Source of the DNA: Leucoraja erinacea
Taxonomy: Eukaryota
DNA length: 64,000 nt
Direction: 5' to 3'
NCBI RefSeq assembly: GCF_028641065.1
Contig: NW_026576883.1
Span: 248,001-312,000, forward strand
Part shown: positions 3,924-59,967 of the stretch, piece after piece
Layout: every line of letters begins with the position of its first letter
How positions within the stretch are numbered: the first letter of the stretch is position 1
Position numbers and translations under genes: made by a program
Notes under the pieces: model-generated
The model's database searches: none
Told to the model about the DNA's origin: nothing
What the model saw: the letters and a program-made list of their open reading frames with translations, nothing else

Positions 3924-4592
3924 TGTGGTATTTTTATATTTGATGTTCTTGGTGTTTGTAATATTGAGGCATTTAACTTTTATACTTTGGTGTATATTTA
4001 TAAATTGGAAACTCTGCTTGTCTGTACTCTATGTGAAGGCCTTTGTCCCCTGTAACCTGCTTGATTGTTTTTTGTAAGAGATAATGGAGACTCAAGATCC
4101 TCTTGTAGCCATTAACGTAAATCATTGGTGACAGTTATATGACCTTGGTATCAAGCCCTAGCTAGGAGAAATAAGGGGCCCAAGAAAGGGAAAGACATGC
4201 GGTTTAAACTAAAGATCATATAGCTCGCTATCGGATCTTTGGTTTAAATAAGGGTGGATTACGGAATGGGAAATAACTGGGAAGGAGGAGAAAAGTAGGG
4301 AATCGTTGCTTGCAAGTGATTGGTTATCGATAAGGGAATATTTGCAAGTGATTGGTTATCGATAAGGGAATGTTTGCAAGTGATTGGTTATCGATAAGGG
4401 AATGTTTGCAAGTGATTGAGTATGGAAACGCACCGGGGTTGGGACACACAGAGTGCCATAAAATGGGGCAGCTCTTGGTTTGGAGAGAACTCTCGAGTGA
4501 TTTACTCTTTGAATGTTCCAGCCTCGATTTGTTTGAACTTCTTGAAGAATTCTCTGCGTGGCCTGAGTTGATTTTGAGTATCAGTAACCACA
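3924..4592. mobile_element. Probable solo LTR
   Basis: Ends TGTGGT...ACCACA (inverted, TG..CA), flanks agaag/acaag (imperfect 5-bp duplication), internal 30-bp CCAAT-containing tandem repeat at ~4310-4420; absent from paralogous flanks (~14590, ~25410). Confidence 0.6.
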
Positions 4593-4644
4593 ACAAGCAT
4601 AGGAGGTGTATGGGATCGAGAGGTGACTGGATAGGGTGAATGCA

Positions 4645-4785
4645 CACGGAGCACCTGGAGGAAACCCAAGTGGTTACAAGGAGAACGTGCAAACTCCGAA
4701 CAGACAGCACCCAAGGTCAGGATCGAACCCTGGTCTCTGGCCCTTAGAGACAGCGGCTCTACCCGCAGCTCCAGAGTACCTCAGA
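4645..4785 (-). mobile_element. tRNA-derived V-SINE/HE1-like SINE (related copies ~16800-17105 +, ~17990-18165 -, ~52215-52420 -)
   Basis: Reverse strand reads ..ccagggttcgatcctgaccttgggtgctgtctgttcggagtttgcacgttctcc..gggtttcctcc: a B-box followed by a V-domain-like core. Confidence 0.65.
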
Positions 4786-5249
4786 AATATTAACCCTTTC
4801 CAGACACTGTATACCACCCAACCTGCTGAATGCCCACAATGTTTTCTGTTTTTTGTTGGCAGTTTATGGTCAGTCTCACATTCCAATAACCCATTCAACT
4901 GGCAAATATTTTTTTTTAAACACAGATGCTGAAAGTCTAAATGGAAACACCATTCATCATCCGTATTAGATCTGAAATGTAAGGTGTGTTTCACCTTGCA
5001 GATGCTGCCTGACCTGCTGAGTATTTGGGGCAATTTCTGCTTTTATTCCACAATTTAAGACATGCATTTGGTTTGAGCCGCAGGTGTGGTAACGGGTCAC
5101 AAAAGTCACTTATTAAATCAGATTCCCGCTGTTTCTGCAATTGTCAAAGTTAATTCTCAAAGTTACAGCTGGTCTGTGGTCGCACCACGTGGCTTTGCTG
5201 CCGTCTAGTGGTGGAACCAAGAAGTGACGCAGTTAACGCGTTGAAATGA

Positions 5250-6768
5250 ACGGATCGACAGACAGACAGACAGCTCTGATTCCAGTTGCTGTTTATTTCA
5301 CTCTTCCCACATTTACATTCCCCCTGGTTTTATTTCCGCGCTCACTGGGGTTTCACGACGTGTAATTTGGGGATTAAATGGGAGCCGTTCGTTCAGCGCC
5401 GACCTGTTGTCCACCGGGTTTCAGCCCCACAGCCCCTGAGCCCCGCTCCTGGCGCCGGTCCCGGGACCCGACCCGACCCAACCGGAGCGGAACCGGAGCA
5501 GATTCTCAGCCAGTTTCCATCACAAGGCCAGAAGAAAGGATAAAGTTTCTCCGTGAATTTATTCCCAGTGAAGGTGTGGAGATGGGACTTGGTGTCCGCG
5601 TCGTAAAATGAAACTGTCCCGGACTCGTAACTGAGGTAAACTCCCAGCCTCCTGGGAATGGGACGGTGCCAACTCCCCGCCACCTCCACCTTCCAGTAAT
5701 ATCATGCAGACAGAAAGTAGATATTGCCGCAGAGATGTAGAACGATGGGGGAAAGCACAAGGAATGTTCATGAGAATTACGCCATAACTGAGAGGATGGA
5801 ACTTAATGAAAAGACTGGGCAGGTTGTGGGATTTCATCTTTGTATTGTATTGTATTCAAATTTATTGTCATTGTCTCAATTAGAGACAACAAAATTAATT
5901 TCCCTTTACAGTCAGTATCATAAAAATTAATAAATAATAAATATTAAAACATATTAAAAAAAATAAAATAGAATTTAAAAAAAAGCACAAACACAGAAAG
6001 TCCACAACGCAACACAACACAGTGGCACCAAGGTGAGGAAGGCACCATTGTCCAGCCAGCCTCCCCTCCGATCTTCCCAGATGTTCATCCGTGGTCGGGT
6101 CCTTCCGAGCACCCGCAGTCACCGCCCCGGGTGGCCCGATGTTCAGGCCCTCACGCCGGGCTGGTGGAACGCCGACGCCGATCCCCGACGGTGAACATCC
6201 TCCTCCTCAGCGGCCCAGACCTCCTGATCAGCCGCCTCCCGCAGCCGGTGTCCGCAGCTCCCGAATCCGCAGGCCGAGCCGGGCAGAGTCGCAGGACCCC
6301 ACGATGTTGGTCAGCGCCGCCCAAACATCCGGAGAAGATGTCAGGAATGATGAGAGGGAATTTAAGTTTATCGGCAGATTTAAATGGGTGGGGATGAAAT
6401 AATATCTTAAATTGAAGGGGAAACCAATAATCAAAGCTGAAATGTAACGTGGTCTTCAATAAATACCGAAAGGAATGCAGTCATGACAACATGGACCTCA
6501 CTTGCATTGGAGGGACTGAAGCCAACAGCAGAAATAAATTTAAGTGCAAGCGGGAATTTGGGGTATTGTTACCGGGTGTGGTGAGTAGATGGGAGGGATG
6601 ATGAGTGGAGCAGAAATCTGACTGGATAGGATGGGCCGAATGGCCTGTCTATGAAGCAGAATGGGATGTCATTCTATGGTGAAACAAGATGGACAAAAGA
6701 AACAGAGCAAATTCCCCCAAGGTGACCACCCACTGCTGATGGGAACCGGATATAGATGACCAATCTGA
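5250..6768 (-). pseudogene. TRIM remnant: 3' UTR plus internally deleted SPRY exon fused directly to intron-3 sequence
   Basis: 5480-5700 encodes EVAGSW|[38 protein letters not shown] with ~140 nt missing and the stop codon lost. 5701-6768 matches intron 3 of D/E/F (e.g. 21757-22345). Confidence 0.85.
5840..6330 (-). mobile_element. LINE 3' end with microsatellite tail (Rex1/L2-like), 5'-truncated
   Basis: tgtattgtattgtattcaaatttattgtcattg tail; interrupts gatttcatct|ggagaagatg, which is continuous in paralogs. Confidence 0.55.
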
Positions 6769-6839
6769 TCACGTGACCGCCCATATTCAGCAGCTCCATG
6801 TCAGAGAAAACACTTTGAACCAGGAAGTGCAGGATTAAA

Positions 6840-9800
6840 ATGGCTGCGAAAGACCAGGTCGAGAGTTTAACTGAAGAGGTAGTTTGTCCCATCTGCCTGG
6901 ATTTCTTCACCGATCCGGTGACACTGGAGTGTGGGCACAACTTCTGCCGCTCCTGTATCACACAGAGTTGGGACAGGGAGGGGAGAAACTCCTGCCCGGA
7001 ATGTAGAGAGCAGTTTACAGACCGCACCCTCAGGGTGAATCGGGCTTTGGCGAGACTGTCTGAGAAAGCTCGAACACTGAGCCTGAATCTCAAAGAGAAG
7101 GAAAGTAAACTTCAGTGCGAGGACCATCAGGAAGAACTGAAGCTGTTTTGTGAAATGGACAAGAAACTGATTTGTGTGGTTTGTGCAGCTGGACGGGAAC
7201 ACAAGTCTCACAGCTTCATGCCGGTTAAAGAAGCTGTTGAAATCTACAAGGTAAAACAAAATGAACTTCGATCACTTCATTGTGTAATCTTTTTTTTTAT
7301 TGTCTGACATATTCTCTTATCTGAAACCCAACCCCAGGAACAGGTGAAAGCTTCTTTCGAATCTCTCACAGAAAAGAAATTAGAGATCGAGAAAATGGAG
7401 CAGAAACAGAAAGAGAGCATTTCTGGAGTTCAGGTGAGGCTTTGTACTGTCGATTTCATTATTTTGTGTAGTTTTGATCCCTGTGATGTCTGTAATTATG
7501 GGCACCTCTATAGAGCTCAGTAGTCGAGGACCTGAGATCTTGGGAGCGGTTGGGCAGCCAAGGACTTTGCTCCCTGGAGCGCAGGAGTCTGAAGACTGAT
7601 CTGTGGCAGGTGTATAATATCACGAAACAAAATGTCAGGGTGAATACTCAGTCTTTTACACTAAGTGGGGCGTTGAGCATGCAAGGGTATAGGTTTAAGG
7701 TGAGAGGGAACAGATTTAATATGAACATTAAGGGCAACTTTGATAGTGGGTATATGGAACGAGCTGCCAGGGGAGGTAGTTGATTCAGGTACCATAACAA
7801 TATTTAAAAGATATTTGAACAAATTCATGGAGAGAAGATTTTAGCACCAGGTGACCAAATGCGGACAAGTGGAAATAGCGCAGATGGGACGTGTTGGTCG
7901 ATATCTAACCCCCTTTGCTCTATGACTCTATGAAGTCGGTCATTCTAAGTGTTGCTGCTGTCTGCTAGTTCTGGGGACCTGGTTCTGTCTAGTGAGGGTT
8001 AATGGGCACATGAAATGGAATAGGTTGCAGGGAATTGTACTGGGGAAATGGGAATGATGTGCTTGTACATTACTTTCACCAAATATTTCAGAATTATCAC
8101 GACGAGCCCTTGAATTGCCAAGGTAATGAAAACTATGGATTAAATAGATGGAGATGGGATTAGTGTAGATACGTACAGAGCCCAGCATAGACATGTTGGG
8201 CCGAAGGGCCTATTTCTGCACTTCAGGACTAGAGATTCAGTTGTTAAATGTCACCTTCCATGTCACGAGGAAACACAGCAGAGTGACACAATATATTGAT
8301 TCTCATCTTTCATCTGACAGGAAGCATCACGCAATCTTCAGTCACAGACCACATCCCAGTTTGCTGAACTGCACCAGATTCTCACTGAGAAAGAGCAGCG
8401 ATTACTCGGAGATGTCCGGGAAGAAGAGGAGAAGATTGTAAAAACAATGGAGAAAAATCTTCAAGAGATACAAGAGAATTTAAATTCCATTCAGGAGGAA
8501 CTCTCAAAGTTACAGGAGCAGATAGACCACAAGGACGGAGTGATATTTCTGAAGGTGAGGGGTTACACTACAGTTTGGTGAAGTGAAAGTGCACAGTCAC
8601 AAAGTGGTGGGTTAAAATTTCAGAAATAAATGCTGCATTTACCAGTAATTCAGTACTGGGTCAATGTTCCATCTACTACTCACCACATCCGACAATAATG
8701 CCCCAAATTCCAGGAATCCTCGTGTATTTATCCTACTTCAACTTCAATTTATCTGCAATGTTGTCTTCAGGCCACCCTGTGAGTTCCACGTTCTGTTTAC
8801 TGCATTTCTTGTGGAATTTATTAAAGGCCATCATACATTTCAGGATTTATTTTTCTTTTCCCCACAAGTAGTGATAATATTTCCAACCCCCGCCCATTTA
8901 AATCCAGCACTGATCTTAAAATATTCCATCCCATTATCTCTGACATCTTCTCCAGATAAAATCCCACGACCTGCCCGGTCTTACTCGTAAGTTGCATACT
9001 CGCAGTTATTTTCATCGACATTCCTAATGCTTTCCCCCGTGTTCGATGTCTCTACGACAATATCCACTTTCTGTCTGTGTGACAGTGGCAAAGAGTTGGG
9101 AAATGGGAATTATCAGAGGGTATTTTGTAGCAATCTAGTGAAATACTCGCCGTCGGGATCATTCCGATCCATCTCAGTCTATTGAGATTTGTGTTTTATT
9201 TATTTCAGGAGAAAGCTGGTTGCAAGAGCAGGTAGGACATGCTTTTGACTGAAACTTTGTATGTTTTTATAGTACAGCTCAAAACAGCTCATGCTCAGTT
9301 TATAACCAGCTGTTCTTTACTCAGAGAGTGGTAGCGGTGTGGAATGAGGTTCCAGTGGAAGTGGTGGAGGCAGGTTCGTTGGTATCATTTAAAAATAAAT
9401 TGGATAGGCATATGGATGAGAAGGGAATGGAGGGTTATGGTATGAGTGCAGGCAGGTGGGACTAAGAGAAAAAAGTTGTTCGGCATGGACTTGTAGGGCC
9501 GAGATGGCCTGTTTCCGTGCTGTAATTGTTATATGGTTATATATGGTTAAATATTTGCAGGGTTATTGATGAAACCAAATCAATGTTGGTGGTAGATGGC
9601 GTAATGCCCATTGAAAAGTATGATCGCACCTTTTTCTACAACGTGGCATTGAGAGAAACATCTGATATCATCAATCGAGGTAAAACTAATACCTTTCCCA
9701 TTGTTCATTTTTAAGACATCTTTATGCAATACTTATATGTGAAGGTTAATGGTATTAATGGACTCTGGAGAAAGCATCACAGAGACAGAGAGTGAAGTTT

Positions 9801-12800
9801 GTTTGCACTTGAGCAAATCCTTGCTCCTGAGAGAATGGGTTTGCTGTGCTGGGTGAAATTGCGTAGACTAGGCCTGTGTATTCGAGAGTTCAGGTATATT
9901 AGAGGAGATCTCAGTGAAAGTTCTTACAGGGCTCAGTGGGCTGGATCCAGGGAGGATGTTTCCCCTGTCTGAGGAGTCTGAAGCCAGCGGAAACTCTCTC
10001 AGAATGTGGGCTGGACCATTTAGGACAGAGACAAAGAGACATTACTGCACGCAGAGACTGGGCAACCTTTGGAATTCCCTGCACCGATAACTGTGGATAA
10101 TCAGTTATTCCGTGCTCTTGGAGCCAGAGAGCCATGATTATACATTACGGAGTCAGGCCCTTCGGCCCATCACATGAATGTGACATGAACAATCCATCAT
10201 TGTACCGGTACCACAAAATACCTCCCCAGCCTGTCTGAATGACTACCGTCCAGTGGCCCTTACCTCGGTTGTCATGAAATGCTTTGAGGAGCTGGTGAAG
10301 AAACACATCTGCGCCTTCCTTCCTTGGAACATGGACCCGTTGCAGTTCACATACCGTCCGAACAGATCCACGGACGATGCGGTCTCCCAGGTCTTGCACA
10401 CTGCTCTCTCCCATCTGGACAGGCAGAAGGGGGGCTACGTGAGGATGCTGTTCATAGACTACAGTTCAGCCTTCAACACGATAGTCCCCACCAGACTGGC
10501 CGGGAAGCTGCTGGAATTGGGGCTAAACACCTCCCTGTGTGCCTGGGTCCTGGACTTTCTCACTGCCAGGCCCCAGGTAGTCAAGATGGGAGGGAATACA
10601 TCGAAGTCCCTCACCCTGAGCACAGGATCGCCCCAGGGTTGCGTCCTCAGCCCCCTATTGTGCTCCCTGTACACACACGACTGTGTGGCTAGGTTCAGCT
10701 CCAACTCATTAATTAAGTTTGCTGATGACACTGTGGTGGTGGGCCTGATCTCAGACAACGATGAGAAGGCCTACCGGGAGGAGGTGGCTGATCTAGCACT
10801 CTGGTGCCAGGATAACAGCCTCCTCTTGAACATCAAAAAAACGAAGGAGCTGATCATGGACTTTAGGAGGGCACATCATCCGAGGACGTACACTCCATTG
10901 AGGATAAATGGGGATCCTGTGGATAGGGTGAACTGTTTTAAATATCTGGGAGTCCACATCTCCGAGGATATGACATGGGCATCACACGCCTCAGCACTCG
11001 TGAGTAAGGCAAGGCAGCGCCTTTACCACCTCAGGCAATTGAGGAAATTCAGAGTGTCTCCGAGGATCCTCCAGTGCTTCTACGCAGCGGCGGTGGAAAG
11101 CATCTTGTCCGGGAACATTACCATCTAGTTTGGGAATTGCTCTGCCAAGGACAAGAAGGCTCTGCAGAGAGTAGTGCGTTCAGCCGAACGCACTATGGGA
11201 ACTTCACTTGCCCCCCTGCAGGATCTATACATCAGGAGGTGCACCTCCAGAGCCAACAATATCATGAGAGACCCCTTCGACCCCTGCAATGGACTGTTCC
11301 AGCTGCTACGGTCAGGCAAACGCCTCCGTTGCCATGCGGTGAGAACGGAGAGGTTGAGAAGGAGTTTCTTCCCAGAGGCCTTTCGGACTGTAAACGCCTA
11401 TCTCACCAGGGACTAACTCTACTGAACGTTTTTCCTTCCATTATTTATTATGTAAAAGAATATGTGTGTTATGAGTGTGTTTACAGTTTGATTGGTTGTT
11501 TGTCTTTTGCACAAAAGTCCGTGAGCATTGCCACTTTCATTTCACTGCACATCTCGTATGTGTATGTGGCAAATAAACTTGACTTGACTTGACTTGACCT
11601 TTTTCCCCAGCTACACAAATCCCATTTGCCCACATTAGAACCATATTATTCTACACCTCGTTTGCTAAATCGCGATGCCTCTTACATGTACTGATTACAT
11701 CTGATTCCACCACCTCCTCTGGCAAAATATTCCAGGTATTAACAACTCTTTGTGTGAAGAAAACTGTGTCCCCCAGTAATGATATACCTGCATGACAATA
11801 AGGTTTAGATGAATGAGCCTATATCCCGCCGCAGACTTTGACAGACATCTTTGGTATCCACAACATTACCTGTTCTCCACAAACACCTCCTACATTCACA
11901 TCCAACCCTTGAAAACATAAAATAAACAGCAAAGGTTGCAGCACCGATCTCTGCTGCACTCCACCAGTCACAGACCTCCAACCAGCAAAATCATCCTTCT
12001 ACCTCCAACCACCAAGACAATTGTGGGTCCATTTTACCAACTCGTCTTGGATCCCACCTGCATTCGATTTCTGGAAATCTTACATGCAAAACGTTGTCAA
12101 GTCCCTCTGTGAAGTTCATATATTGTTTCACAATGAGATCAGAGTGTTCTTGGTTGTACAGACGCATCAAATCCACGCTCCACTATAGAAAGCAAGTAAA
12201 GAGTAGCAGATGGCCTCGTGCGTCCAGTCCACTCCCGTTCAGTATGATCACAGCAACTCCACCCCACATCCCTACATCCTCTTTAACCACCTCTAATTAC
12301 CCCTCACATCCGTCTCCTCATCTTCCAATCTGCCTCTCCTTTGCCATCTACTGATATTTGAATACCCGCCTTATTTCTCCATCGCCACCCGCAATATCTC
12401 GTTCATCCTCACTTTACGTATTCATTTTCCCCGTCCGCACGTCCCCGCCCCCTCCTGTTCCCGATAACCCGCAGAATCCCCCCTCTCCTCCCCGGTTGTC
12501 AAACTCCTGGAATGATGTCTGTTTTCCATCCGATGTGGTTGTGGGTGAAACCCCGGGCAAGGTGTCAGGTATCAGTTGTCCGCCCGCCTGTGCCCGAGTC
12601 TCCCCCTGTCCCCCGGGGACTCTCTGATTCTCTGCTTCTCCCCCCAGTCTCCGTCATCCTGGATGTGGAAACAGCGTATCCGGTGCTCGAGGTGTCTGAG
12701 GATCGGAAGAGGGTGAGACTGACCGGACCCGAGAGGCGTCTCCCTGACACCGGGAAGAGGTTTACATACTGGCCGTGTGTGCTGGGATCGGAGGGATTCA

Positions 12801-13177
12801 CATCGGGGAGACATTACTGGGATGTGGAGGTGGCGGGGAGGCGGTACTGGAGTCTGGGAGTCGCCGCAGAGTCTGTGGAGAGGAAGAGACAGGTCACACT
12901 GACCCCGGAGACTGGAGTCTGGAGCATCTGGCGGCAGGGTGACGAGTTTAATGCAGCCGCCTCGCCTCTATCCCCTCTCCTCGCCCGTCCCATCCTCGGG
13001 AGGGTGGGAGTTTATCTCAGTTACGAGTCGGGGACAGTTTCATTTTACGACGCGGACACCAAGTCCCATCTCCACACCTTCACTGGGAATAAATTCACAG
13101 AGAAACTTTATCCTTTCTTCGAGACTTATGAAGACCAGTGGCTGAGAATCTGCTCCGGTTCCGCTCCGGGTGTGTAA
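6840..13177 (+). CDS. TRIM gene B, RING/B-box2/coiled-coil/PRY-SPRY E3 ligase (TRIM27/39/69-like class), 470 aa, intact
   Basis: Exons 6840-7250, 7338-7433, 8321-8554, 9209-9231, 9561-9679, 12648-13177 total 1413 nt, open frame, GT-AG introns. PRY-SPRY motifs [49 protein letters not shown] near 13324 and 13362. Confidence 0.93.
10180..11598 (+). mobile_element. Rex1/Babar LINE, 5'-truncated, in gene B intron 5
   Basis: ORF 10253-11128: [11 protein letters not shown], DPLQFx[31 protein letters not shown] premature TAG at 11126 is followed by the continuing frame (ORF 11174-11416); aataaa(cttga)n tail. Confidence 0.9.
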
Positions 13178-13585
13178 AAGGGTCGGGTCCCAGGACCGGT
13201 GTCAGGAGCGGGGCTCAGGGGCTGTGGGGCAGAAACCCGGTGGGCAACAGGTCGGCGCTGAATGAACGGCTCCCATTTAATCCCCAAATTCCGCGTCGTG
13301 AAACAAACCCCAGTGAGCGCGGAAATAAAACCAGGGGGAATGTAAATGTGGGAAGAGTGAAATAAACAGCAACTGAAATCAGAGCTGTCTGTCTGTCTGT
13401 CTGTCTGTCTGTCGACCCGTTCATTTTAACGCGTTAACCGCATCCGGCAACGGAACAGAAATTACTTTTGTGAAAATATAAAGATTGAAACAATCTCCCT
13501 TCCCGCGGGTTCAGCAGCAGCCGCGGGCGGCGGGTCCTGAGCTCCGGGCTCCCCCCCCCCCCTTTAACTTGGAGGCAGGTAAAAC

Positions 13586-13710
13586 CAAAGATCTTAGAGC
13601 AGGCAAGATGGCACGCAAATGCATAGTACGCTCATGGGCAGATTCATGGGTAATTATAGGACCCATTTTAGCAACCAGCCCCCGTTATCTTGTTCCGCCA
13701 TCTTGCTTCC
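13586..13710. mobile_element. Left end of a longer CAAAGATC-terminated DNA element (hAT-like)
   Basis: caaagatcttagagc at 13586 with internal inverted repeat gcaagatggc...gccatcttgc; no right TIR seen. Confidence 0.4.
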
Positions 13711-13749
13711 AGCGGGGAGGGGGAGTGTGTGGCCCGGGGAGAGGGAGTG

Positions 13750-14730
13750 AGCGGATTCCCTTTCCCTGAACTGCTGGCCCCCTCCTGCAGTACCGCGTGT
13801 GTTCACTGCTCACACTGCCGTCTCGGGGAATGAATGTAATTCGGCTGCAAGTGTTCAGTGTGAAGATGCAGAAACGTGGAACTGCAGGTGCTGCTTCACA
13901 ACAAAAAGGCACAAAGTGCTGGATTAACTCAGCGGGTCAAGTAGCACCTCTGGAGAACATGGACAGGTGATGTTTCGGGTCTGGATCCTTCTTCAGACTG
14001 ATTGTAGGGGCGGTGGGTGGGAGATGGAAGAACGATGGAAGGAAGGGGGCAGGACAAAGCCTGGCTGGTAATAGGTTGACACAGTTGAGGGGGAGAGGGG
14101 GGAGTTGATCGGCAGACGGTTGGACAAAGTCCAGAGATGAAAGACAGAAAGTGTGTGACAAAATGATCGAGGACTTGCGAATTGTGTCCTGATCTTCAAA
14201 CACTCTTCTCCTCAGACGGCCAAAGGTTGTGCAGGTGCACTGAAGGCGCTGGTGAATTTCACCATCAATGTCTGCCTTCCTCTGGGAAGAGGAGCGCCGG
14301 CCACAGGACCCGAGGGTCACCATCGTTACGACCATTTTAAAGGAAGGAGACAAATCCACCCGCGGAAACTATGGAGGGTTCTTCTCCCGCTCTCTACCGC
14401 AGGGAGGGGTCAGTTACACATTAAACTGTCCTGAATATAGATGAAAGCGGAGAGTAGCGCTTGGGACAGTGTAAACAATGTTAAAAGTTGGAAAAAATGC
14501 GGAGTCGAGTTCCAAGGACGCTGGCAAGATTTGAGGCCCTGAGTGACAGGAAGAGGTTGGGCAGGGAAGGATTTATTAATTGGAACGCTGGATGCTGAAG
14601 TGTATGGGAACAAGAGGTGAATGGCTAGGGTGAATGCACAGTCTTTTACCCGGAGTAGTGGAGTCGAGAACTAGAGGACACAGGTTTGTGGTGACAGGTG
14701 CAAGATTTAATCGGAACCTGAGGAACAATA
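13750..14730 (-). other. Orphan TRIM 5' flank with no exon 1
   Basis: Near-identical to the sequence directly upstream of the ATG of A (2550-2960), D (24685-24890) and F (59720-60850), but no RING exon follows. Confidence 0.8.
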
Positions 14731-15455: not shown

Positions 15456-15559
15456 ACCATTCAGACAATATTTTCACACAGAAGGTCGTGGGGAAATGGA
15501 ACAAGCTGCCAGAGGAGGTAAGTCAGGCTGGCCAACAACGTGTCAGCGAACTTTAGGAC

Positions 15560-15790
15560 CCATGGGAACCCGGAGCCGTGGAGCCGCTGCTGCTGCTCAA
15601 TGGGGTTTCGGGCGCGAAACGGCGGCGGAACCATCAATGAAAGGGGCGGGGCCCGGCTGAGGGGAGGCGGAGCTCAGCCCCGTCAATCACAGCCCTGACC
15701 AGAAAGGCAATGTCATTTGTAATCAGCTTCGGGTAAATTTCATTCCCTTAAACGAAATACATCCGTGTTTCCTATCGTGAATTGTTCATT
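15560..15790 (-). promoter_or_regulatory. Candidate CpG/GC-box promoter repeated per duplication unit (also 25630-25810 and 48400-48720)
   Basis: aaggggcggggcccggctgaggggaggcggagc (GC boxes) in a CpG-rich patch conserved in three units upstream of the TRIM 5' flanks. Promoter function is inferred. Confidence 0.5.
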
Positions 15791-15874
15791 ATATTAGGCT
15801 GCACAATAATATCCGTTCTATAGCAAACACTGTTATTTTATTTAACAGTCTCATGTGCAAACTTGAATTCAACT

Positions 15875-23745: not shown

Positions 23746-24636
23746 TTCTAATATATAATGTCACTGATTGTGTTTCCTCGCCACTTTGACCGTGACATTT
23801 GTCCTGTTCATTTTTTATTTGCTTTGGCAATTCAATTCAATTCCAAATGCTTCTGAAATATTGTGACTGTAATCTTATAACCCATCAAACCTCTACTCCC
23901 AATGCAATTCCCTGCTGCCTATTCATTTTCTCGTGAAAGCTGCCCTATTATTACAAGCATCACAGGGATCAAATCTACACAAGTTCAGGAAATCGAAATC
24001 GAAAGCCTCACCAGAACTCCAGAAATCTTCTGTTTCTGTTGCTGCTCCATTTGCTGGATCTCTGATTCCTTTTTTGTGAGAGATTCGAAGGAAGATTTCA
24101 CCTGATCCTGGAGTTGGGTTTGAAAATCCGAGAATAAAAGTGTTAGACAAAAAAACAGGAATTAAACAATTATGCGATCAAAATTGATTCGCTTTTACCT
24201 TGTAGAATTCTGCAGCTTCTGCTATCAGCGTGAAGTTGTGAGCTTTGTGTTCCTGCCCGGCTGCACAAATCACACAGATCAGCTTCTTGTCAGTTTCACA
24301 AAACAGCTTCAGTTCTTCCTGATGTTCCTCGCACTGAAGTTTACTTTCCTTCTCTGTCCGATTCGGGCCCAGTGTTCGAGCTTTCTCAGACAGTCTCGCC
24401 AAAGCCCGATTCACCCTGAGGGTGCGGTCTGTAAACTGCTCTCTACATTCCGGGCAGGAGTTTCTCCCCTCCCTGTCCCAACTCTGTGTGATGCATGAGC
24501 GGCAGAAGTTGTGCCCGCACTCCAGCGCCACCGGATCGGTGAAGAAATTCAGGCAGAAGGGACAAATTATCTCCGCCGTCCAACTCTCGGCCTGGTCGTT
24601 CGAAACCATTTTAACTATCCACTTCCTGGTTCAAAA

Positions 24637-24674
24637 CAAAGAGCCTATAGCATAGCTCTGCTATAGGATCTTTG
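24637..24674. mobile_element. 38-bp palindromic CAAAGATC micro-element with 8-bp TSD
   Basis: gttcaaaa|caaagagcctatagcatagctctgctataggatctttg|gttcaaaa; the site is empty in F (59712-59719). Confidence 0.8.
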
Positions 24675-24890
24675 GTTCAAAAGAGGATTCCCTTTCCCTA
24701 AACTGCTGACCCCCTCCTGCAGTACCGCGTGTGTTCACTGCTCACGCTGCCGTCTCGGGGAATGAATGTAATTCGGCTGCAAGTGTTCAGTGTGAAGATG
24801 CAGAAACGTGGAACTGCAGATGCTGCTTCACAACAAAAAGGCACAAAGTGCTGGATTAACTCAGCGGGTCAAGTAGCACCTCTGAAGAAC

Positions 24891-25155: not shown

Positions 25156-26434
25156 TTAAGAGACAAATCCACCCGCGGAAACTATGGAGGGTTCTTCTCC
25201 CGCTCTCTACCACAGGGAGGGGTCAGTTACACATTAAACTGTCCTGAATATAGATGAAAGCGGAGAGTAGCGCTTGGGACAATATAAGGCAGGATAAAAA
25301 GTTGGAAAAAACTGCAAGAGTAGATTTCCCAGGACGTTGGCAAGATTTGTGGCCCTGAGTGAACGGGAGAGGTTGGGCAGGGAAGGATTTATTAATTGGA
25401 GCGCCGGAGGCTGAAGTTCATGGGATCAAGAGGTGAATGGATAGGGTGAATGCACAGTCTTTTACCCGGAGTAGTGGAGTCGGGAACTAGAGGACACAGG
25501 TTTGTGGTGAGAGGTGCAAGATTTAATCGGAACCTGAGGAACAATATTTCCACACAGAAGGTCGTGGGGAAATGGAACAAGCTGCCAGAGGAGGTAAGTG
25601 GGGCTGGACAACAACGTGTGGACGGGCTTTAGGACCCGGGGGAGCCCGGAGCTGTGGAACAATCAATGAAAGGGGCGGGGCCCGGCTGAGGGGAGGCGGA
25701 GCTCAGCCCCGTCAATCACAGCCCTGACCAGGAAGCCGATGTCATTTGTAATCAGCTTCGGGTAAATGTCATTCCCATAAACTAAATACATCCGTGTTTC
25801 CTATCGTGAATTGTTCATTATATTAGGCTGCACAATAATATTCGTTCTATAGCAAACACTGTTATTTTATTTAACAGTCTCATGTGCAAACTTGAATTCA
25901 ACTCAATGATTCAATGATACTCTATTGTCACATGTATCAAGGGACGGTGAAATTCGTTGTTTTTGCATGTAATCCGGTAAAATACAGACCTCACCCAGGC
26001 AGTACAGAGAGAGTCGCCACGTTTCTGGCGCCGACAAAGTTGCGAGAAGTTCAGTGAATTCAGCGTTATTTTCCTCTCTTGGATTATTTTATCCAATTTC
26101 ATTCCCTGCTCCCATTTCCACATCCTCAGTAAGACCTATACTGTCCTCGTCCGATCAACATCAACACCAATTCATTCACTCTGGCACAGCGGACTCGGAA
26201 TTATTCTAAGTTTCAGACATGCCAAACTTCCTCGGTCTTCTGAGGAAGTAGAGGCGTTTAGATGTAAAGGAGGCCACATCGAGAGAACCGAGTGCCATAG
26301 ACGAGGATAGAGGAGATGCAAGTGAATCTCTGCCTCCCATGAAAGGGTTGTTTGTGTTCCTGAATGGTGGTGAGGGTCGAGGAGTAGGGACAGAGTGGCG
26401 CTTCCCCTGGTGGGTTGTAGGGGAAAGCGCCACT

Positions 26435-38885: not shown

Positions 38886-39334
38886 TTTAACTCCTCCTCT
38901 TCCTGGTTCAAAAAAACACACGTCCCCTTTCGCTGAAACCAAAGATTGGCTGAAACTGCTGAACTCCTGCAGTACCGCGAGTGTTCACTGCTGACGATGC
39001 CGCCTCAGGGAATGAATGTAATCCGGTTGCAAGCAAAGATCTTTAGTTGCAAGTGTTCAGTGTGAAGATGCAGAAACAATGAACTGCAGATGCTGCTTCA
39101 CAACAAAAATGCACAAAATGCTGGATTATCAAAATGCAGGTTTCGGCCCGAAATGTTGCATATTTCCTTCGTTCTGTAGATGCTGCCTCACCCGCTGAGT
39201 TTCTCCAGCATTTTTTGTCTACCTCCGCTGGATTAACTCAGCGGGTCGCGCACCTCTGAAGAACAAGGACAAGTGATGTTTCGTGTCTGGACCGAGCTTC
39301 AGACTGATTGTAGGGGCGGTGGGTGGGAGAGGGG

Positions 39335-45300: not shown

Positions 45301-45430
45301 AAGGGTATAGGATATCAGTATATGTAATGGTGTTGTTTGATCCACACTCCATGCCAGTTGGTGGCGGTAATGCACCAAAAAAGTTGTTTGCCAACCGCCA
45401 AAAAACACTATATAGAAGAAGAAGAAGTAG
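39335..45430 (+). mobile_element. Near full-length Nimb/I-clade LINE (ORF1 with CCHC knuckles; ORF2 APE-RT-RNaseH-CCHC), inactivated
   Basis: ORF1 pieces 39566-40765 (RCYKCQRYGH, CCNCGGPH). ORF2 pieces 40762-45301: ILQWNARS, ICIQETWL, GDFNAH, SDHYPI, YRPIALTS, FDIEKAYD, GTPQGSIISP, LFADD, IYTDAS, WVPAHIGIRGNEMAD, CEYCGQEETIEHVIVHC. 3' stem ggcggt..accgcc and a (gaa)n tail. Confidence 0.92.
42366..43172 (-). mobile_element. Rex1-like 3' fragment nested in the Nimb RT, itself containing a + strand LINE tail (42510-42807)
   Basis: ORF 42831-43166 (FYRCSIESILTYC..HPGHSLFELLPSGRRYRS), (agaat)n tail. Nimb ERLTYY|VENKG rejoins across it. The inner insert is flanked by the 19-bp repeat ataaaatattaaaagataa. 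Confidence 0.85.
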
Positions 45431-45654
45431 ATGTCACTTCACTGAATTTGGATAATGTGCACAACATGTAACATGCACAAGAATCTCATGGAAAAAATCG
45501 TTTTCATCTGAATTAAGTATTTGTATTATTTGAGTTACTTATTTGTTTGTTTTCCTTTGTGTTTTATTTTCTTTTTTTATTGCTTACAGGTTTATTTGTG
45601 TTTGTATTTTTTAACATGTTCAATAAATTAATTTAAAAAAATTAATAAAGTAAG

Positions 45655-47285
45655 TACCTTGGTGCTTTTAAGATGGAAATCAACCCAAAAATGCTTGGCT
45701 GTGCAGCTTGTTTTTAAACTCCATTTTTGAATATTCCTGCGTGCAATTTGTAATTGCAATATTTCCTACATTGCAAAATAGTGGCTGTATTTCCAAATTA
45801 TTTTGTCAGTAAAGCACTTTGGAGTCTCCTGTGGGGATATTGTATGAATGCAAGAAGGTGCTTTGTGGCACGAACTTGGGCTTGGAAGAAACACTCCATT
45901 TCCAATGCTGAAACTGAAGTTGCGAGCCGAAGGTGTCCGCGGGCGTGGAATGGATAATCATCTACTTCTTTTTACCCCCTCTCCTCCAGCTTGTAATGTT
46001 AATATCTCTTCTTTGTATTTCTGTCTGACAGAAAGAAATGATCGCATTTTCTGCTTTGAGGAGATCATCAAGACATAGATGACTATGTGAAGCTTCAAAA
46101 ACTTGCATCTGGACTTTGATCTCCTTTTCCCTTTCCTCAGGATTCTCCTCCAAGATACTTTCTGTTATTTGTTTCTTTTCCCGAATCTTCATCAACAATC
46201 TTGTTTTTATTTTAAGAGACCAGGCTACCGATGTTATCAATTTATTCCATGATGAAAAGTGGGTAATTAAATTATTCACGGTGTCATATGAGTTTTTTTT
46301 CAATCACATTCACCGAAATGTTTTGTTTAATTTCCGGATCTTTTGTAGAGATTTCAGATCCGAGTTCAAGCTTTGGCCATTCTCTACTTGGCTTACTAAG
46401 AAACTTTGGCTCATTGATCCATCTCTTGTTATTAAGAAAGCAATTTGCTGTTTGTCCCCTAGAGGCTTCATCCGCAGGATTTTCCTTTGTATTAACATAT
46501 CTCCATTGAGAAACATTAGTAGCTCCTAGTACAAAGGAAACTCTATTTGCAACAAATGTCATAAAACGTTTGTTTTCATTGTTAATGTATTTCAAAACCA
46601 TAGTGCTATCGGTCCAGAAGGTAGATTCTTTCAGTTGAAATTGCAGTTCCTTTCTCAGCATTATGTCAATTTTAACAGCTAAGACTGCTGCTGTAAGTTC
46701 CATTCAGGGAATAATTTGCTTCAATGGTGCTACTCTGGCTTTTCCCCATTAAGAATGCAACATGCACTCTTTTGTTTACATTTTGTAGTCTTAAGTATGA
46801 AACAGTCCCATAACCACTTTCGCTGGCATCCAAAAAGTTGTGCATTTCCGATTTTACCAAAGGTTTTAGGCTTTATACACCGATCTATTTTAAACTTTGA
46901 AATTTTGTGGAGGTCTTTTAACCATTCTGTCCAACTGTGCGAGGATGTTTGAGTTATACTCTCATCCCAACCAAGTTTTTCTCTACACAGATTCTGTAAA
47001 ATTAACTTGGCTAGCAGTGTAAATGGTGCAAGAAATCCCAAAGGATCATATACTGAACCAATCACAGATAAGACACCCCTTCTTGTGCATGGTCGTTCCT
47101 GAATCGACAATTTAAACTTAAACACATCCGTTTCCACGCACCAGTGCAGTCCCAGTGCCCTTTCCATTGGCAAGTTGTCTTTGTCTAAATCCAACTCCTT
47201 GCTTTCTTCCGCTCTGTCATCTGGTGGAATGCTTTCCAAAACAGCACGACTGTTGCTGACCCACTTGGTAAGTACAAATCCTCCC
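45655..47285 (-). mobile_element. BEL/Pao LTR-retrotransposon pol fragment, frameshifted
   Basis: [75 protein letters not shown]. Confidence 0.9.
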
Positions 47286-47321
47286 TTATAAAAAGCCCAG
47301 GTGGAAGTGTTGGAAAGCCCT

Positions 47322-47470
47322 GCTTTTTCTTAGGGTAACCAATTTGTTCGGAAGGATATAGGTTATTAGTATGTAATGGTGTTGTTTGATCCACACTCCA
47401 TGCCAGTTGGTGGCACCAAAAAATTTGTTTGCCAACCGCCAAAAAACACTACATAGAAGAAGAAGTAGGA
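47322..47470 (+). mobile_element. 5'-truncated copy of the same Nimb family (3' end only)
   Basis: Matches 45270-45430; 13-bp TSD gttggaaagccct (47309-47321 / 47471-47483). Confidence 0.85.
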
Positions 47471-47950: not shown

Positions 47951-48964
47951 AAACATTAAAGTGGTGAACGAGAGCAGCAGCGATACAGTCACACAGCACG
48001 GAAACAGAACTTTCAGCACAGCTGTTCTATGCCGACCAAGATGCCCCATCTAAGTTAGTCCTATTTGCCGCGTTTGGCCCATGCACCCCATCTAATCTCT
48101 CCCGCCCATGCACCCCATCTAATCTTTCCCGCCCATGCACCTGTCCAGATGTATTTTAAATGCCTCAAACAACCGCCATAAAGTACCCGAGGAAGCGGCG
48201 GGGGAGGGTTGTGGCTACGACTGAAACAAGGAACGTTCCCCGTAGTCTACAGAGAGGTAGGCAGAGCCTGATCCCTAACGGGTTCCCACCCGGAATCTGG
48301 AATTTGTTTTGGACCCATTCTTGCACAGATCAGTTCACTAGAAAACGAATCTATTGCGTGAATAGGAAATGTTTCAAACACGATGTAAACACAACGTGAG
48401 AGCGGGCTTTAAGACCCGGGGAGCCCGGAGCTGTGGAGCCGCCGCCGCTGCTGCTGCTGAACCCGCGGTCAATGGGGTTTTGGGCGCGAAACGGCGGCGG
48501 AACCATCCAAAGCAAAGATCTTTGATCCAAAGATCCTCTATAATCTTTGGTACCATCAATGAAAGGGGCGGGGCCCGGCTGAGGGGAGGCGGAGCTCAGC
48601 CCCGTCAATCACAGCCCTGACCAGAAAATGGATGTCATTTGTAATCGGCTGCGGGTAAATTTCATTCCCTTAAACTAAATACATCAGTGCTTCCTATCGT
48701 GAATTGTTCATTATGTTAGGCTGCACACTAATGTTACTTATACAGCAAATACTATAATGAAGAAGGGTCTCCTCCAGTGATGGAACTAGAGGGTACACTA
48801 AGGTCCGTCAGGCTGAAGGGGAGGAGGGGGATTTTTTTAATGTGCGGTCATACCCATGTAAGAGTACACGCATGCATAACTTGTTTATTGTGTATTATAT
48901 GACACAGCTGCTTTCTTGCATCTCTCTCTCTCGGTGGCTCTGGCCATCGTCTGCTTCGGTGAAG

Positions 48965-49335
48965 GAAGCTGGTGATTGGTTACAACGCCCCTCGGAGACT
49001 GTGTCTGATTGGCCACCGAGTGACCAGCGCGTTACGTGATTGGACACAATGGCCTTGGAGACAGCGGCTGATTGGATGGGAGGGAGACCGATTTGTTGAT
49101 TGGACGGGAATGTTAAGGGAACCTGTTCGGTGATTGGTCACAACGCCCCCGCAGAGACTGTGTCTGATTGGCCATGGAGTGACCAGCGCATTACGTGATT
49201 GGACACAATGCCCTTGAAGACAGCAGCTGATTGGATGGGAGGAGACCGATTTGTTGATTGGACGGGAATTTTAAGGGGAGCTGGTCGGAGATTGGACGCA
49301 ACCCCCTTCGAGACAGCGCTTGATTGGCCGCCAAA
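48965..49335. repeat. Array of 12 ATTGG (CCAAT) boxes at ~32-bp spacing, ~158-bp higher-order unit
   Basis: attgg at ~48975, 49008, 49039, 49071, 49099, 49133, 49167, 49198, 49230, 49257, 49291, 49323. Confidence 0.8.
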
Positions 49336-49894
49336 TAATCGGGCACAAAAACTGACAAATAGGGAAACAAAAAAAAAATCGGAATTGCAATTTAAATCTG
49401 ATATAAGGTACATAGGGTGGGTATCGATTAATTCTAAACAACAGATTTAAAAAATAATCTAACCCCATTAATTAACTCAAGGTGTATTATGATGTGTTCC
49501 ACAGTATGAAGTGTACAGCAAAACTTGCACTTCCAGAGTGGTCTATCATGTTGTTTCTTCAGTGGACCACCGATTTATTTTAAGAGCAAAACATAATGTG
49601 CTGGAGAACTCAGCAGGTCCAGCTGGATCAATGGATGGTCCGAAGAAGGTTCTCGACACAAAACGTCACCTATTCCTTCTCTCCAGAGATGCTGCCTCAC
49701 CCGCTGAGTTACTCCAGCATCTTGTGTCTATCTATGGAGGGAATGGCTAGGCGACGTTGAGGGTCGGGTCCCTCCTTCAGGCATTTTTAAGGGGTTGGGA
49801 AAGATCAAAATTTTACGTATTTAAATATTATGTTACAAATATAACCAGTAGTGTGGGGTAAAATTCCATGAGCTACAATTGCCACATACATACC

Positions 49895-51667: not shown

Positions 51668-51785
51668 TTTAAGAAGGAACTTCAGATGGTGGAAAATCGA
51701 AGGTACACAAAAAAGCTGGAGAAACTCCAGCTTTTTTGTGTACCTTCGATTTTCCACCATCTGAAGTTCCTTTTTTGTGTACCTA
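51668..51785. repeat. Long inverted repeat (same family as 1028-1164; related ~50553-50665 and ~58771-58955)
   Basis: aaggaacttcagatggtggaaaatcgaaggtacacaaaaaagctggag-aaa-ctccagcttttttgtgtaccttcgattttccaccatctgaagttcctt; flanked by atgtatcat repeats. Confidence 0.8.
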
Positions 51786-56100: not shown

Positions 56101-59100
56101 GAACTGGGCCAATGGGCTCAGGAACGGCAGGTGGGATTTATTCATGTGAAGGTGAGGTGATGCACTTTGCTGAGACAAACCAGGGCAGGACATACACAGT
56201 AAACGGGGAACTTTATAGAACTGAGAGATCTCGGGCTGCAGGTACACAGTGCCATGGAAGATGCAGCAGGGACAGGCAGGGTGGTGAAGAATGTGTTTGT
56301 TGCTCATATTTTCAAAGGTCAGAATAAGAAATATAGTTTGACACAATAAGTTTGTAAGCAAATTGGAGAGGGAGCAAAAGGATTTAAAATAATTTCATCA
56401 GGTCTGAAGGGCTGGGTTATAAGGAGACGTTGGACAGGCAGGGTCATTCGTCTTTGGAGTCCATCAGCTTTTACAGATGTATATAAGATTTATATAATGT
56501 GCACAGATAAGGTGAGTAGCCGGAGTATTTTACCCAAGGCAGGTGAGTCTAAACATCTGATTCTGTGATGCTTCCCGGCTGATGAGTTTAGTGGTTTAGC
56601 TCCGACCGCTGGCATGCTTGGGGCCTATATCAGCGAGCAGCCGCGGTCTCCAGTAAGAAAGTGTCCGATTCGGGTGCTCCAAGCCGCGGAGTGTGTTCCA
56701 TCCGTCCTGACGTCAGAGCTTCGATCATCCCGACGAGAAGGCTTGTACATCGGGCCGTCCCTGGCGGCGACTGCGGAGGGTCAAGGCCCCAAACAGGGAA
56801 GAACAAAAGGAGGAAGACTGACTGAACTTTATTGCCTTCCACACTGGTGGATGTTTACGTTAAGTTCTATCGTTCGTTTTAATTGTGTTGTGTTCTTTTA
56901 ATTGTACGGCTGCATGGTAACTCAAATATCACTGTGCCTTAATTGGTGCACGTGACAATAAATGTGAATCTGAGACACAAGAATAATGGATTTACCTCGC
57001 TTGAAGTCATCAGATACTTCTTTGAATGTCGTGTTGAACAAAACAGGGCAATTAAACTTTTCAATCTGCAAGGCTTCATCTACCACCGACAGTGGTTTGG
57101 CATCATCACAAACCCTGGAAACACAGTATTTTAACATCTGGTCATAAACTGAGCATTAGAAATGTTTTGAGTTGTTCCACAAAAACGTACCATGTTTCGG
57201 TCAAGACAATGTCTTACCTTCGCTTACAACCAGCTTCCTCCTGAAAGAAATAAAACACAAATCTCAATTGATTGAGATGGACAGTCCTCATCCCGACAGC
57301 GGGAATTTCACCAAATTTCTACAACCCTCTGATAATTCCCATTTCCCAACTCTTATCGCCACTGACATGCAGACAGAAAGTGGATATTGCCGCAAAGATG
57401 TAGAACGATGGGGGAAAGCACAAGGAATGTTCATGAGAATGACGCCATAACTGAGAGGATGGAACTTAATGAAAAGACTGGACAGGTCATGGGATTTCAT
57501 CTGGAGAAGATGTCAGGAATGATGGGAGGGAATTTAATATTATCGGTGGATTTAAATGTGTGGGGATGAAATAATATCTCAAATCGAAGGGGAGACCAAT
57601 AATCAAAGTTGAAATGTAACGTGGTCTTCAATATATACCGAAAGAAATAGTCATGAGAACATGGACCTCACTTGCATTGGAGGGACTGAAGCCAACAGCA
57701 GAGATAAATTTAAGTGCAAGCGGGATAAACACATTAGGGCTCCTGGAATTGGGGTATTGTTACCGGGTGTGGAGATTAGATGGGAGGGATGAACCAAATG
57801 GCCTGTCTATGATGTAGAATGGGATTCATTCAATGGTGAAACAAGATGGACAAAACAAAAAGAGCAAATTCCCCCAAGGTGACCACCCACTGCTGATGGG
57901 AACCAGATATAGATGATCAATCTGATGTGCACGCCACTTCTAGATTACATTGTTAAACCTCTCAGAGTCTCTTGGTTGGAGAATCCCAGATATTTACTGC
58001 CCTCTGTCCATTCATGGTCCTTGGGATCAGATATAGGATCACCCGTCGTTGTTCAAAACATTACAGAATACAAACACCTCTCTACATTCCGGCCAGGCAT
58101 TCCAGAGATGCCATGGATTATATGGGAGGCCAATCAGTTTGCTGGAAAAGAGGGAACATTTACCTAATTCTCAATTACTGGTAAATGCAGCATTTATTTC
58201 GGAAATGTCACCCACCATTTTGTGACTGCACTTTCACTTTGACAAACTGTAGTGTAACCCCTCACCTTCAGAAACACCGCACTGTCTTTTTGACCCATGT
58301 GTTGCTGCAACTTAAAGAGGTCCTCCTGAATAGATTTTAAATTCTCTTGAATCTCTCCAAGATTTTTCCCCATTGAATTTAGAATCTTCTTCTCTTCCTC
58401 TCGGATATCTGCCAGTACGCGCTGTTCTTTCTCAGTGAGAATCTGGTGCAGTTGAGCAAACTGGGATGTGATCTTGGACTGAAGGTTGTGTGACTGTTCC
58501 TGTGAAATGAAAGGTGAAGATCACTACATAATGTCACTGATTGTGTTTCCTCACGACTTTGACCGTGACATTTGTCCTGTGCATTTTTCATTTGGCAATT
58601 CAATTCCAAATGTTTCTGAAATATCATGACGGTAATCTTATAACCCATCAATCCTCTACCCCCAATGCAATTCCCTGCTACCTATTCCTTTTCATGTGCC
58701 CTTTAATTCCAATTCATCCGCCCACTTTCCGAGGGGTAATTTACAGTCGCCGATTGACCATTGAACCAGCATGAATGAAAATGACTAAAATTGCTGGAGT
58801 AACTCAGTGGGTGAGACAGCATCTATGGAAAGGAGAAGTAGGCGACCCTTCAGGTCAAGACCCATTGCTCCATGGATGCTGCCTCACCAGTTGAGTTTCT
58901 CCAGCATTTTCTGTCTGCTTTCGATTTTACCAATATCTGCAGTTCCTTCTTAAACATTGAAGCAGCGTGTATTGGGGTCGCGGAAGGAATCCGATGCGGT
59001 CACAGGGAGAAGGCATGAAGGTTATACTATCGTTACACGCACCACAGGGATCAAATCTACAAAAGATCAGGAAATCGAAACTGGAAAGTCTCACCAGTAC

Positions 59101-59691
59101 TCCAGAAATATTCTGTTTCTGTTGCTGCTCCATTTGCTGGATGTCTGATTCCTTTGTTGTGAGAGATTCGAAGGAAGATTTCACCTGATCCTGGGATTGT
59201 GTTTGAAAATCAGAGAATAAAAGTGTTAGACAATTAAAATGTAATTAAACAATTATGCGATCAACATCGATTTGCTTTACCTTGTAGAATTCTGCAGCTT
59301 CTGCTATCAGCGTGAAGTTGTGAGCTTTGTGTTCCTGCCCGGCTGCACAAATCACACAGATCAGCTTCTTGTCAGTTTCACAAAACAGCTTCAGTTCTTC
59401 CTGATGTTCCTCGCACTGAAGTTTTCTTGCCTTCTCTGTCCGAATGAGGCTCAGTGTTCGAGCTTTCTCAGACAGTCTCGCCAAGGCCCGATTCACCCTG
59501 AGGGTGCGGTCTGTAAATTCCTCTCTACATTCCGGGCAGGAGTTTCTCCCCTCCCTGTCCCAACTCTGTGTGATGCATGAGCGGCAGAAGTTGTGCCCAC
59601 AATCCAGTGACACCGGATCGGTGAAGAAATCCAGGCAGATGGGACAAATTATCTCCGCGGTCCAACTCTCGACCTGGTCGTTCGAAGCCAT
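53153..59691 (-). CDS. TRIM gene F, RING/B-box2/coiled-coil/PRY-SPRY, 470 aa, intact
   Basis: Exons 59691-59281, 59190-59095, 58499-58266, 57240-57218, 57114-56996, 53682-53153 total 1413 nt, open, GT-AG. Confidence 0.92.
54514..54896 (+). mobile_element. CR1 3' fragment in gene F intron 5
   Basis: Matches other CR1 3' ends; ttctatg tail; the homologous site in gene E (~31776) is empty. Confidence 0.85.
56598..56972 (+). mobile_element. LINE 3' UTR fragment (Rex1/L2-like)
   Basis: Ends gtgacaataaatgtgaatctga; absent from paralogous introns. Confidence 0.45.
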
Positions 59692-59967
59692 TTTAACTCC
59701 TCCTCTTCCTGGTTCAAAAGAGGATTCCCTTTCCCTAAACTGCTGACCCCCTCCTGCAGTACAGCGCAAGATCCTATAGCAGAGGATCTTTGGTACCGCG
59801 TGTGTTCACTGCTCACGCTGCCGTCTCGGGGAATGAATGTAATTCGGCTGCAAGTGTTCAGTGTGAAGATGCAGAAACGTGGAACTGCAGATGCTGCTTC
59901 ACAACAAAAAGGCACAAAGTGCTGGATTAACTCAGCGGGTCAAGTAGCACCTCTGAAGAACGTGGAC

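What the first reader, a model, noticed from the sequence alone, without database searches (positions are those of the whole stretch)
4210..59792. Ultra-short (9-42 bp) CAAAGATC palindromic insertions with 8-bp TSDs that repeatedly hit TRIM 5' regions
Seen: 4210-4241 (gtttaaac/gtttaaat); 24637-24674 (gttcaaaa x2); 38940-38948 caaagattg (gctgaaac x2); 39034-39045 caaagatcttta (gttgcaag x2); 48508-48549 (gaaccatc/gtaccatc); 59767-59792 (gtacagcg/gtaccgcg). Five lie at different positions of the shared 5' flank or GC-box promoter, with empty sites in paralogs, so they are independent events. The sixth is in an upstream LTR. I noticed none in introns. Known: 8-bp TSDs, often nTnnnnAn as in several of these, typify hAT transposons. 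Inference: these are TIR-only derivatives, smaller than ordinary MITEs, or abortive gap-repair scars of a hAT family that prefers open promoter chromatin. They would record germline-accessible sites and diversify TRIM 5' regions.
Basis: partly seen in the sequence, partly recalled or inferred. Interest (0 to 1): 0.72.

Follow-up and report, generated by a model that had tools for sequence, protein, structure and literature searches.

The report
P-type transposon scars at TRIM starts
Seven tiny fused transposon tips sit in this cluster of TRIM genes, four of them just upstream of start codons, and they are likely scars left when a relative of the fruit-fly P element landed near promoters and cut itself out, rather than the hAT-type minis first proposed, though the responsible enzyme was not found.

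Summary
All six inserts are real, with 8-bp duplications; the 42-bp one is two nested events, so seven in all (7 hits against 0.2 per shuffle). Empty paralog sites exist for five of the six loci. Each insert is the outer 20 nt or less of one terminal repeat, joined tip to tip, mostly at short self-complementary overlaps. A high-copy MITE with the same ends and a longer repeat exists; one truncated copy lies at 13586. This anatomy matches Drosophila P-element donor-site junctions and not hAT footprints, so these are likely P-superfamily excision scars from a cut about 20 nt inside each end. Four lie 28-149 bp above TRIM start codons, none was found in introns, and another species has a stub at a fifth flank position. 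Stubs with the same 15-16-nt ends occur in annelid-like DNA, one with a perfect 7-bp duplication. No transposase was found, so the P label is inferred. This scan reported the same idea before on other skate DNA (at least 12 notes); my paper searches did not find it in print.

The parts
4202..4249 (.). 32-bp stub (4210-4241; arms 15 + 16 nt, 1 nt filler) with 8-bp duplication, in an LTR-like stretch 1.76 kb above a TRIM start codon
   Evidence: no paralog in window; LTR label not tested
13578..13710 (+). One-ended ~125-bp copy of the longer MITE: left end at 13586 after GGTAAAAC; right terminal repeat lacks about its last 15 nt and abuts an orphan TRIM 5' flank
   Evidence: high copy number and an exact left-junction contig in run X6
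13750..13960 (-). Orphan copy of the shared TRIM 5' flank with no RING exon next to it; empty at the 38940, 39034 and 59767 sites
24629..24682 (.). 38-bp stub (24637-24674; arms 20 + 20 nt overlapping by 2) with perfect duplication GTTCAAAA, 28 bp above the ATG at 24609
   Evidence: class abundant at unrelated loci in 3 of 4 runs
38932..38956 (.). 9-bp stub (38940-38948; arms 7 + 3 nt overlapping by 1) with perfect duplication GCTGAAAC, 55 bp above the ATG at 38885
39026..39053 (.). 12-bp stub (39034-39045; joined at the repeat's internal palindrome) with perfect duplication GTTGCAAG, 149 bp above the ATG at 38885
48500..48557 (.). Outer 22-bp stub (48508-48549 once the inner event is discounted) with 8-bp duplication, beside a GC box in a duplicated CpG-rich segment
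48505..48532 (.). Inner perfect 12-bp stub (48513-48524) with its own perfect duplication ATCCAAAG, overlapping the left end of the outer stub
59759..59800 (.). 26-bp stub (59767-59792; arms 19 nt with a 1-nt deletion + 10 nt, overlapping by 2) with 8-bp duplication, 76 bp above the ATG at 59691
24181..24609 (-). TRIM RING/B-box exon next to the 38-bp stub (like exons at 2015-2452, 6819-7304, 38367-38885, 59248-59691)
   Evidence: Pfam RING and B-box hits; ATG positions

Best explanation
These inserts are fused terminal-repeat tips inside intact 8-bp duplications, and they are likely excision scars of a P-superfamily DNA transposon that likely favoured open promoter DNA. Shown: stubs, duplications, empty paralog sites, arms of 20 nt or less, a longer high-copy element with the same ends, position near start codons. 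Inferred steps: (1) a longer element (MITE or autonomous copy) inserted near a TRIM start in the germline, making the 8-bp duplication; (2) the transposase later cut flush at the element's 3' ends but about 20 nt inside on the other strand (17 nt in Drosophila), leaving two identical single-stranded tips on the chromosome; (3) end joining paired the tips at self-complementary spots of the repeat, at the extreme tips (38 bp = 20 + 20 - 2) or at the inner palindrome (12 bp), or after trimming (9, 22, 26, 32 bp); (4) the scars lack inner transposase sites and would be immobile, so each would mark one past landing.
For: All 14 arms of the 7 window stubs match the repeat for 20 nt or less; three reach 19-20 nt; five of seven junctions overlap by 1-8 nt. 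The longer element's inverted repeat continues past nt 20, yet the 38-bp stub and the X17 insert turn round at nt 20. Drosophila P donor junctions have the same forms, including tip joins of 30 and 32 bp and short collapsed ones (PMC2895639 Table 1); the 17-nt stagger, 8-bp duplication, promoter preference and local hopping are in PMC7776569. Symmetrised duplication consensus GTTnnAAC; match to the P target core GTCCGGAC 29 of 64 positions against 15.4 expected (motif from PMC2577343). 4 of 7 events fall in 1.9% of the window (binomial 4e-6). A further stub at a fifth flank position in run X17. The 38-bp class has many unrelated flanks in 3 of 4 runs. Annelid-like stubs with the same ends; one has a perfect 7-bp duplication (L111), a size that 1360 and Galileo of the P superfamily make (PMC3698922).
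Against: No transposase links these ends to P: 0 of 143 frames scanned hit a transposase family, and no genome was available. The arm model used was itself 20 nt long, so that call cannot show a longer arm; the cap rests on reading two stubs that reach nt 20. Two of seven junctions (4210, outer 48508) show 1-2 nt of filler, not overlap. The duplication motif also fits nTnnnnAn (12 of 16). No site was seen with a full element in one lineage and a scar in another. The abundant 38-bp class could be a mobile unit or be copied inside other repeats. The 200-bp enrichment zone was chosen after seeing the data, no RNA data place the transcription starts, and intron repeats may be younger than the scars. 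Of six complete annelid-like stubs, three (L026, L033, L094) have no clear duplication and two (L015, L045) only imperfect ones.
Confidence: 0.7

Rival explanations
1. One reading: remnants of a hAT family, made by aborted gap repair or extreme internal deletion.
For: 8-bp duplications; nTnnnnAn met at 12 of 16 positions; a MITE family with these ends exists.
Against: hAT excision makes flank hairpins and small flank insertions or deletions (PMC5499845, PMC3499496 passages), whereas both duplications here are intact around element tips. Aborted copying should give arms of any length, but those seen stop by nt 20 of a longer repeat. G at position 1 and C at position 8 are as conserved as T2 and A7. 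A 7-bp duplication occurs with the same ends in L111.
Confidence: 0.1
2. The 38-bp form is itself a mobile micro-MITE; the shorter forms are its decay products.
For: Contigs matching the 38-bp stub end exactly at its borders with unrelated flanks in runs X1, X15 and X17 (18, 43 and 49 contigs at the left border).
Against: Lengths in the window are 9, 12, 12, 22, 26, 32 and 38 bp, each within its own duplication. Tip-to-tip joins are also common P repair products (PMC2895639). Drosophila P has its transposase sites inside the terminal repeats' inner borders (PMC7776569), which a stub would lack.
Confidence: 0.1
3. Excision scars, but of a non-P superfamily with an undescribed long staggered cut.
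For: No transposase found; the ends differ from the P and Pdre2 ends given in the papers read beyond the first two bases; the inferred stagger is 20, not 17.
Against: The long stagger is described as a distinguishing feature of P (PMC7776569); duplication size, target motif and promoter bias all fit P.
Confidence: 0.1

Closest known systems
Drosophila melanogaster P element donor-site end-joining junctions (PMC2895639 Tables 1-3; mechanism PMC7776569)
   Same: Terminal-repeat tips fused at short overlaps inside an intact 8-bp duplication; promoter preference; palindromic target with GT..AC core
   Different: Natural, fixed scars in a vertebrate genome, not laboratory products; arms reach 20 nt, not 17; different terminal sequence; target centre is AT-richer (GTTnnAAC); enzyme not identified
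Zebrafish Pdre2 / THAP9 elements (PMC10983969, PMC7776569)
   Same: Vertebrate P-like elements with 8-bp duplications and internally deleted copies
   Different: 13-bp terminal repeat of different sequence; no genomic scar family or stagger length in the passages read
Natural P insertions in Drosophila heat-shock promoters (PMC1592238)
   Same: Repeated independent hits on the proximal promoters of one gene class, clustered at particular sites
   Different: Those are deleted elements segregating in populations; here only scars remain, and polymorphism was not shown
1360 and Galileo (P superfamily; PMC3698922)
   Same: 7-bp duplications, as in the annelid-like locus L111
   Different: The window's events all have 8-bp duplications; no sequence link tested
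hAT elements such as TcBuster and Hermes (PMC3499496, PMC5499845)
   Same: 8-bp duplication; T at 2 and A at 7
   Different: Flank-hairpin excision alters the flanks; the TcBuster motif nnnTAnnn is not enriched here (6 of 16, p 0.23)

Membership tests
P superfamily | Transposase with THAP domain and P-type catalytic core between these ends | not testable with these tools
   No genome held; 0 transposase hits in 143 frames of window and animal loci; viral and prokaryote scans gave no paired ends
P superfamily | Target duplication of 7-9 bp | tested here: met
   8 bp in 7 of 7 window events; 7 bp in L111; sizes from PMC3698922
P superfamily | Long staggered cut leaving terminal-repeat tips at the donor site | tested here: inconclusive
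   Stub anatomy fits, but the cut is inferred from 7 stubs plus one contig, not assayed
P superfamily | Palindromic target with GT..AC core | tested here: met
   GTnnnnAC 23 of 32 positions against 8.0 expected; not unique to P (recalled: hobo and Hermes are similar; search found no paper)
P superfamily | Preference for promoter regions | tested here: met
   4 of 7 events within 200 bp of TRIM start codons, 2 beside a GC box; this window only, transcription starts not mapped
P superfamily | Internal transposase-binding sites and subterminal repeats | not tested
   Only one truncated longer copy available (13586)
hAT superfamily | 8-bp duplication, nTnnnnAn | tested here: met
   12 of 16 positions against 4.3 expected
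hAT superfamily | Excision by flank hairpins, leaving altered flanks | tested here: not met
   Both duplications intact around element tips in 7 of 7; expectation from PMC5499845 and PMC3499496
hAT superfamily | hAT transposase | not testable with these tools
   None in 143 frames; no genome
MITE (mobile as a unit) | Many copies of uniform length and sequence | tested here: inconclusive
   Not met for the set (six lengths in seven events); open for the 38-bp class

The most novel reading that the evidence does not exclude
One P-type transposon lineage with a ~20-nt staggered cut jumped between marine annelids and cartilaginous fish, changed its target duplication from 7 to 8 bp while keeping the same 15-16-nt ends, and left so many immobile scars at germline-open promoters that they both map those promoters and rewrite the 5' regions of a fast-evolving TRIM family, one scar adding a two-codon upstream reading frame.
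Probability: 0.2. Interest if true: 0.75.

Novelty: new variant of a known kind. Interest (0 to 1): 0.5.

Why it matters
If right, a vertebrate genome holds a natural record of where a P-type transposase cuts (about 20 nt against the fly's 17) and where it lands. That would make the vertebrate P/THAP9 cleavage geometry testable from sequence and would give a fossil map of germline-accessible promoters. The scars also add 17-46 bp to the 5' regions of three TRIM paralogs; any effect on expression is untested. The shared ends in annelid-like DNA raise a horizontal-transfer question.

Tried and rejected
Whole-genome survey: no genome held. Search for an autonomous parent: metagenome scan returned 117 loci from about 5 of 64 parts of the collection; 8 are animal-like stubs and the rest I take as chance single matches; L070 and L122 were flagged by the loose pairing test and dropped as weak. 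Viral scans gave 12 single matches and 0 paired stubs; the prokaryote genome scan gave 2 single matches that I did not examine further. Raw-read runs X23 and X24 laid 0 reads, so they give no test. Run X10 showed no depth spike over the 38-bp stub; contigs cannot show absence. A right end with a matching duplication for the 13586 element was sought to position 30000; 8 near-matches of the 8-mer, none preceded by a terminal repeat. A stretch at 32653-32794 with 7-bp end matches lacks a duplication and longer arms and was rejected. The hit at 4931 vanished under the arm model. Presence/absence polymorphism within a species was not resolved. Paper searches listed nothing on these ends, on natural vertebrate P scars, or on annelid P transfer; the library lacks most subscription journals and Repbase, and no supplements were read, so the family may be catalogued there.
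Full report
Setting. The window is a tandem cluster of TRIM genes (five RING/B-box exons and four full PRY-SPRY exons by Pfam) among LINE and LTR-retrotransposon pieces. That it is a skate or ray is not shown by my calls; it rests on recalled repeat sequences and on earlier scan notes for the same genome. No whole genome was held.

Observation. All six inserts are at the given coordinates with 8-bp duplications, three perfect and three with one mismatch. A scan for two terminal-repeat arms inside an 8-bp duplication found 7 events in 64 kb against a mean of 0.2 in 25 shuffles (arm model from the window, so partly circular). The seventh is a perfect 12-bp stub at 48513-48524 with its own perfect duplication, nested at the left end of a 22-bp stub. 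Each of the four TRIM-flank inserts occurs in one of five aligned copies, at four different positions, and 48508 is cleanly empty in one of two paralogs, so these are independent insertions. The 4210 site has no paralog; it may have arrived inside its host repeat.

Position. The four flank events lie 28, 55, 76 and 149 bp above TRIM start codons. Four of seven in 1.9% of the window gives a binomial 4e-6, with the caveats that the zone was chosen afterwards and that transcription starts are unmapped. CpG ratios around all sites fall in the 77th-97th percentile of the window. None was found in introns or exons. In run X17 (another organism) one contig follows the flank to 24790 and then carries 21 letters that begin like the terminal repeat before joining the right arm: a stub at a fifth position, whose right duplication was not visible.

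Anatomy. Arms matched the repeat for 15+16, 20+20, 7+3, 10+10, 10+10, 13+7 and 19+10 nt; five junctions overlap by 1-8 nt and two have 1-2 nt of filler. The model was 20 nt long, so that call cannot report longer arms, but the 38-bp stub and the X17 insert both turn round at nt 20, while the longer element continues its inverted repeat to about nt 27-28. The stubs are therefore tips of the repeat, not whole repeats.

Parent family. Its interior drew very high summed contig depth in runs X6 and X19 (764 and 441 contigs laid on the whole 361-bp stretch), and a 97-bp X6 contig spans its left junction with no differences (X6 may be the source sample). X23 and X24 laid nothing. The 38-bp stub drew depth 18,000-60,000 in X1, X15 and X17, with loose ends exactly at its borders and low agreement among them, meaning many unrelated flanks; X10 showed no such spike.

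Mechanism. Drosophila P transposase cuts 17 nt inside each end (PMC7776569, passages), and donor sites repaired by end joining keep tips of the repeat fused at microhomologies within both duplications, from 32-bp tip joins down to a few bases (PMC2895639, passages with Tables 1-3). The window's stubs have these forms if the stagger is about 20 nt. hAT enzymes make hairpins on the flanks and leave small flank insertions or deletions (PMC5499845, PMC3499496, passages). The eight duplications give GTTnnAAC when symmetrised; they match GTnnnnAC at 23 of 32 positions, nTnnnnAn at 12 of 16 and nnnTAnnn at 6 of 16 (P motif from PMC2577343, passages), so they do not by themselves exclude hAT. Promoter preference and local hopping are P traits, and natural P insertions cluster in heat-shock promoters (PMC1592238, passages). 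The cut itself and the enzyme are inferred: none of 143 frames (96 window frames of 105 aa or more starting below 60800; 47 frames of 65 aa or more from seven animal loci) hit a transposase family.

Other animals. A scan of about 5 of 64 parts of the metagenome collection for the first 15 nt gave 117 loci. Six hold complete stubs of 30-51 bp (L015, L026, L033, L045, L094, L111), one is cut by a contig end (L053) and one has a decayed right arm (L034); they come from three assemblies. L015/L033 and L045/L094 share one flank and may each be one event. Duplications at 7 bp: L111 7 of 7, L015 6 of 7, L045 5 of 7; none clear in L026, L033, L094. They show no similarity to the window beyond the stub. 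L034 carries dynamin exons whose best named match is the leech Helobdella (90% over 50 aa; the shark Chiloscyllium 82%), and its stub lies about 300 bp above the dynamin start. 1360 and Galileo of the P superfamily make 7-bp duplications (PMC3698922, passages). Transfer versus old conservation is not resolved.

Known and new. It works like the P element; membership is unproven because the transposase could not be tested. Zebrafish has P-like elements with other ends (PMC10983969, passages). Nine paper searches (listings only) found no report of these scars; Repbase and supplements were not seen. My P-scar reading was recorded before I opened the earlier notes, which show the scan reached it repeatedly on other skate DNA, including the 18-20-nt cap, promoter crowding and an unrelated animal. 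Those notes are leads, not support. What this window adds is the paralog-controlled independence of four hits on one flank, a fifth in another species, a nested double scar and a truncated parent at a rearranged gene.

Verdict. Real feature; likely P-superfamily excision scars (0.7); new variant of a known kind; interest 0.5.

Noticed in passing
window 24637-24674, minus strand: On the TRIM sense strand the 38-bp stub contains an ATG followed by one codon and a stop, a two-codon upstream frame about 45 bp before the RING start if it is transcribed.
   Followed up: no
window 5226-13960: Rearranged block: a truncated minus-strand SPRY piece and intron (5226-6769), a whole plus-strand TRIM with a different 5' flank (6814-13444), an inverted piece of the GC-rich segment (13503-13554), the one-ended MITE, then an orphan minus-strand 5' flank. 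The MITE may mark a breakpoint.
   Followed up: partly
window 15535-15831, 25652-25860, 48391-48753: A GC-box, CpG-rich segment duplicated with the TRIM unit; possibly an upstream promoter or non-coding first exon.
   Followed up: partly
window 48960-49340: Tandem repeats rich in GATTGG (CCAAT boxes on the other strand) just beyond the GC-box segment; similar repeats at 4307-4426 in the LTR-like stretch.
   Followed up: no
window 39600-47330: About 8 kb of retroelement pieces upstream of one TRIM: endonuclease, reverse transcriptase and RNase H frames, then a Pao-type piece.
   Followed up: no
window 51671-51775: Near-perfect 51-bp inverted repeat with a 3-nt spacer.
   Followed up: no
L034 3001-3038: Annelid-like stub about 300 bp above the dynamin start codon, hinting at the same 5'-end bias in that animal.
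   Followed up: partly
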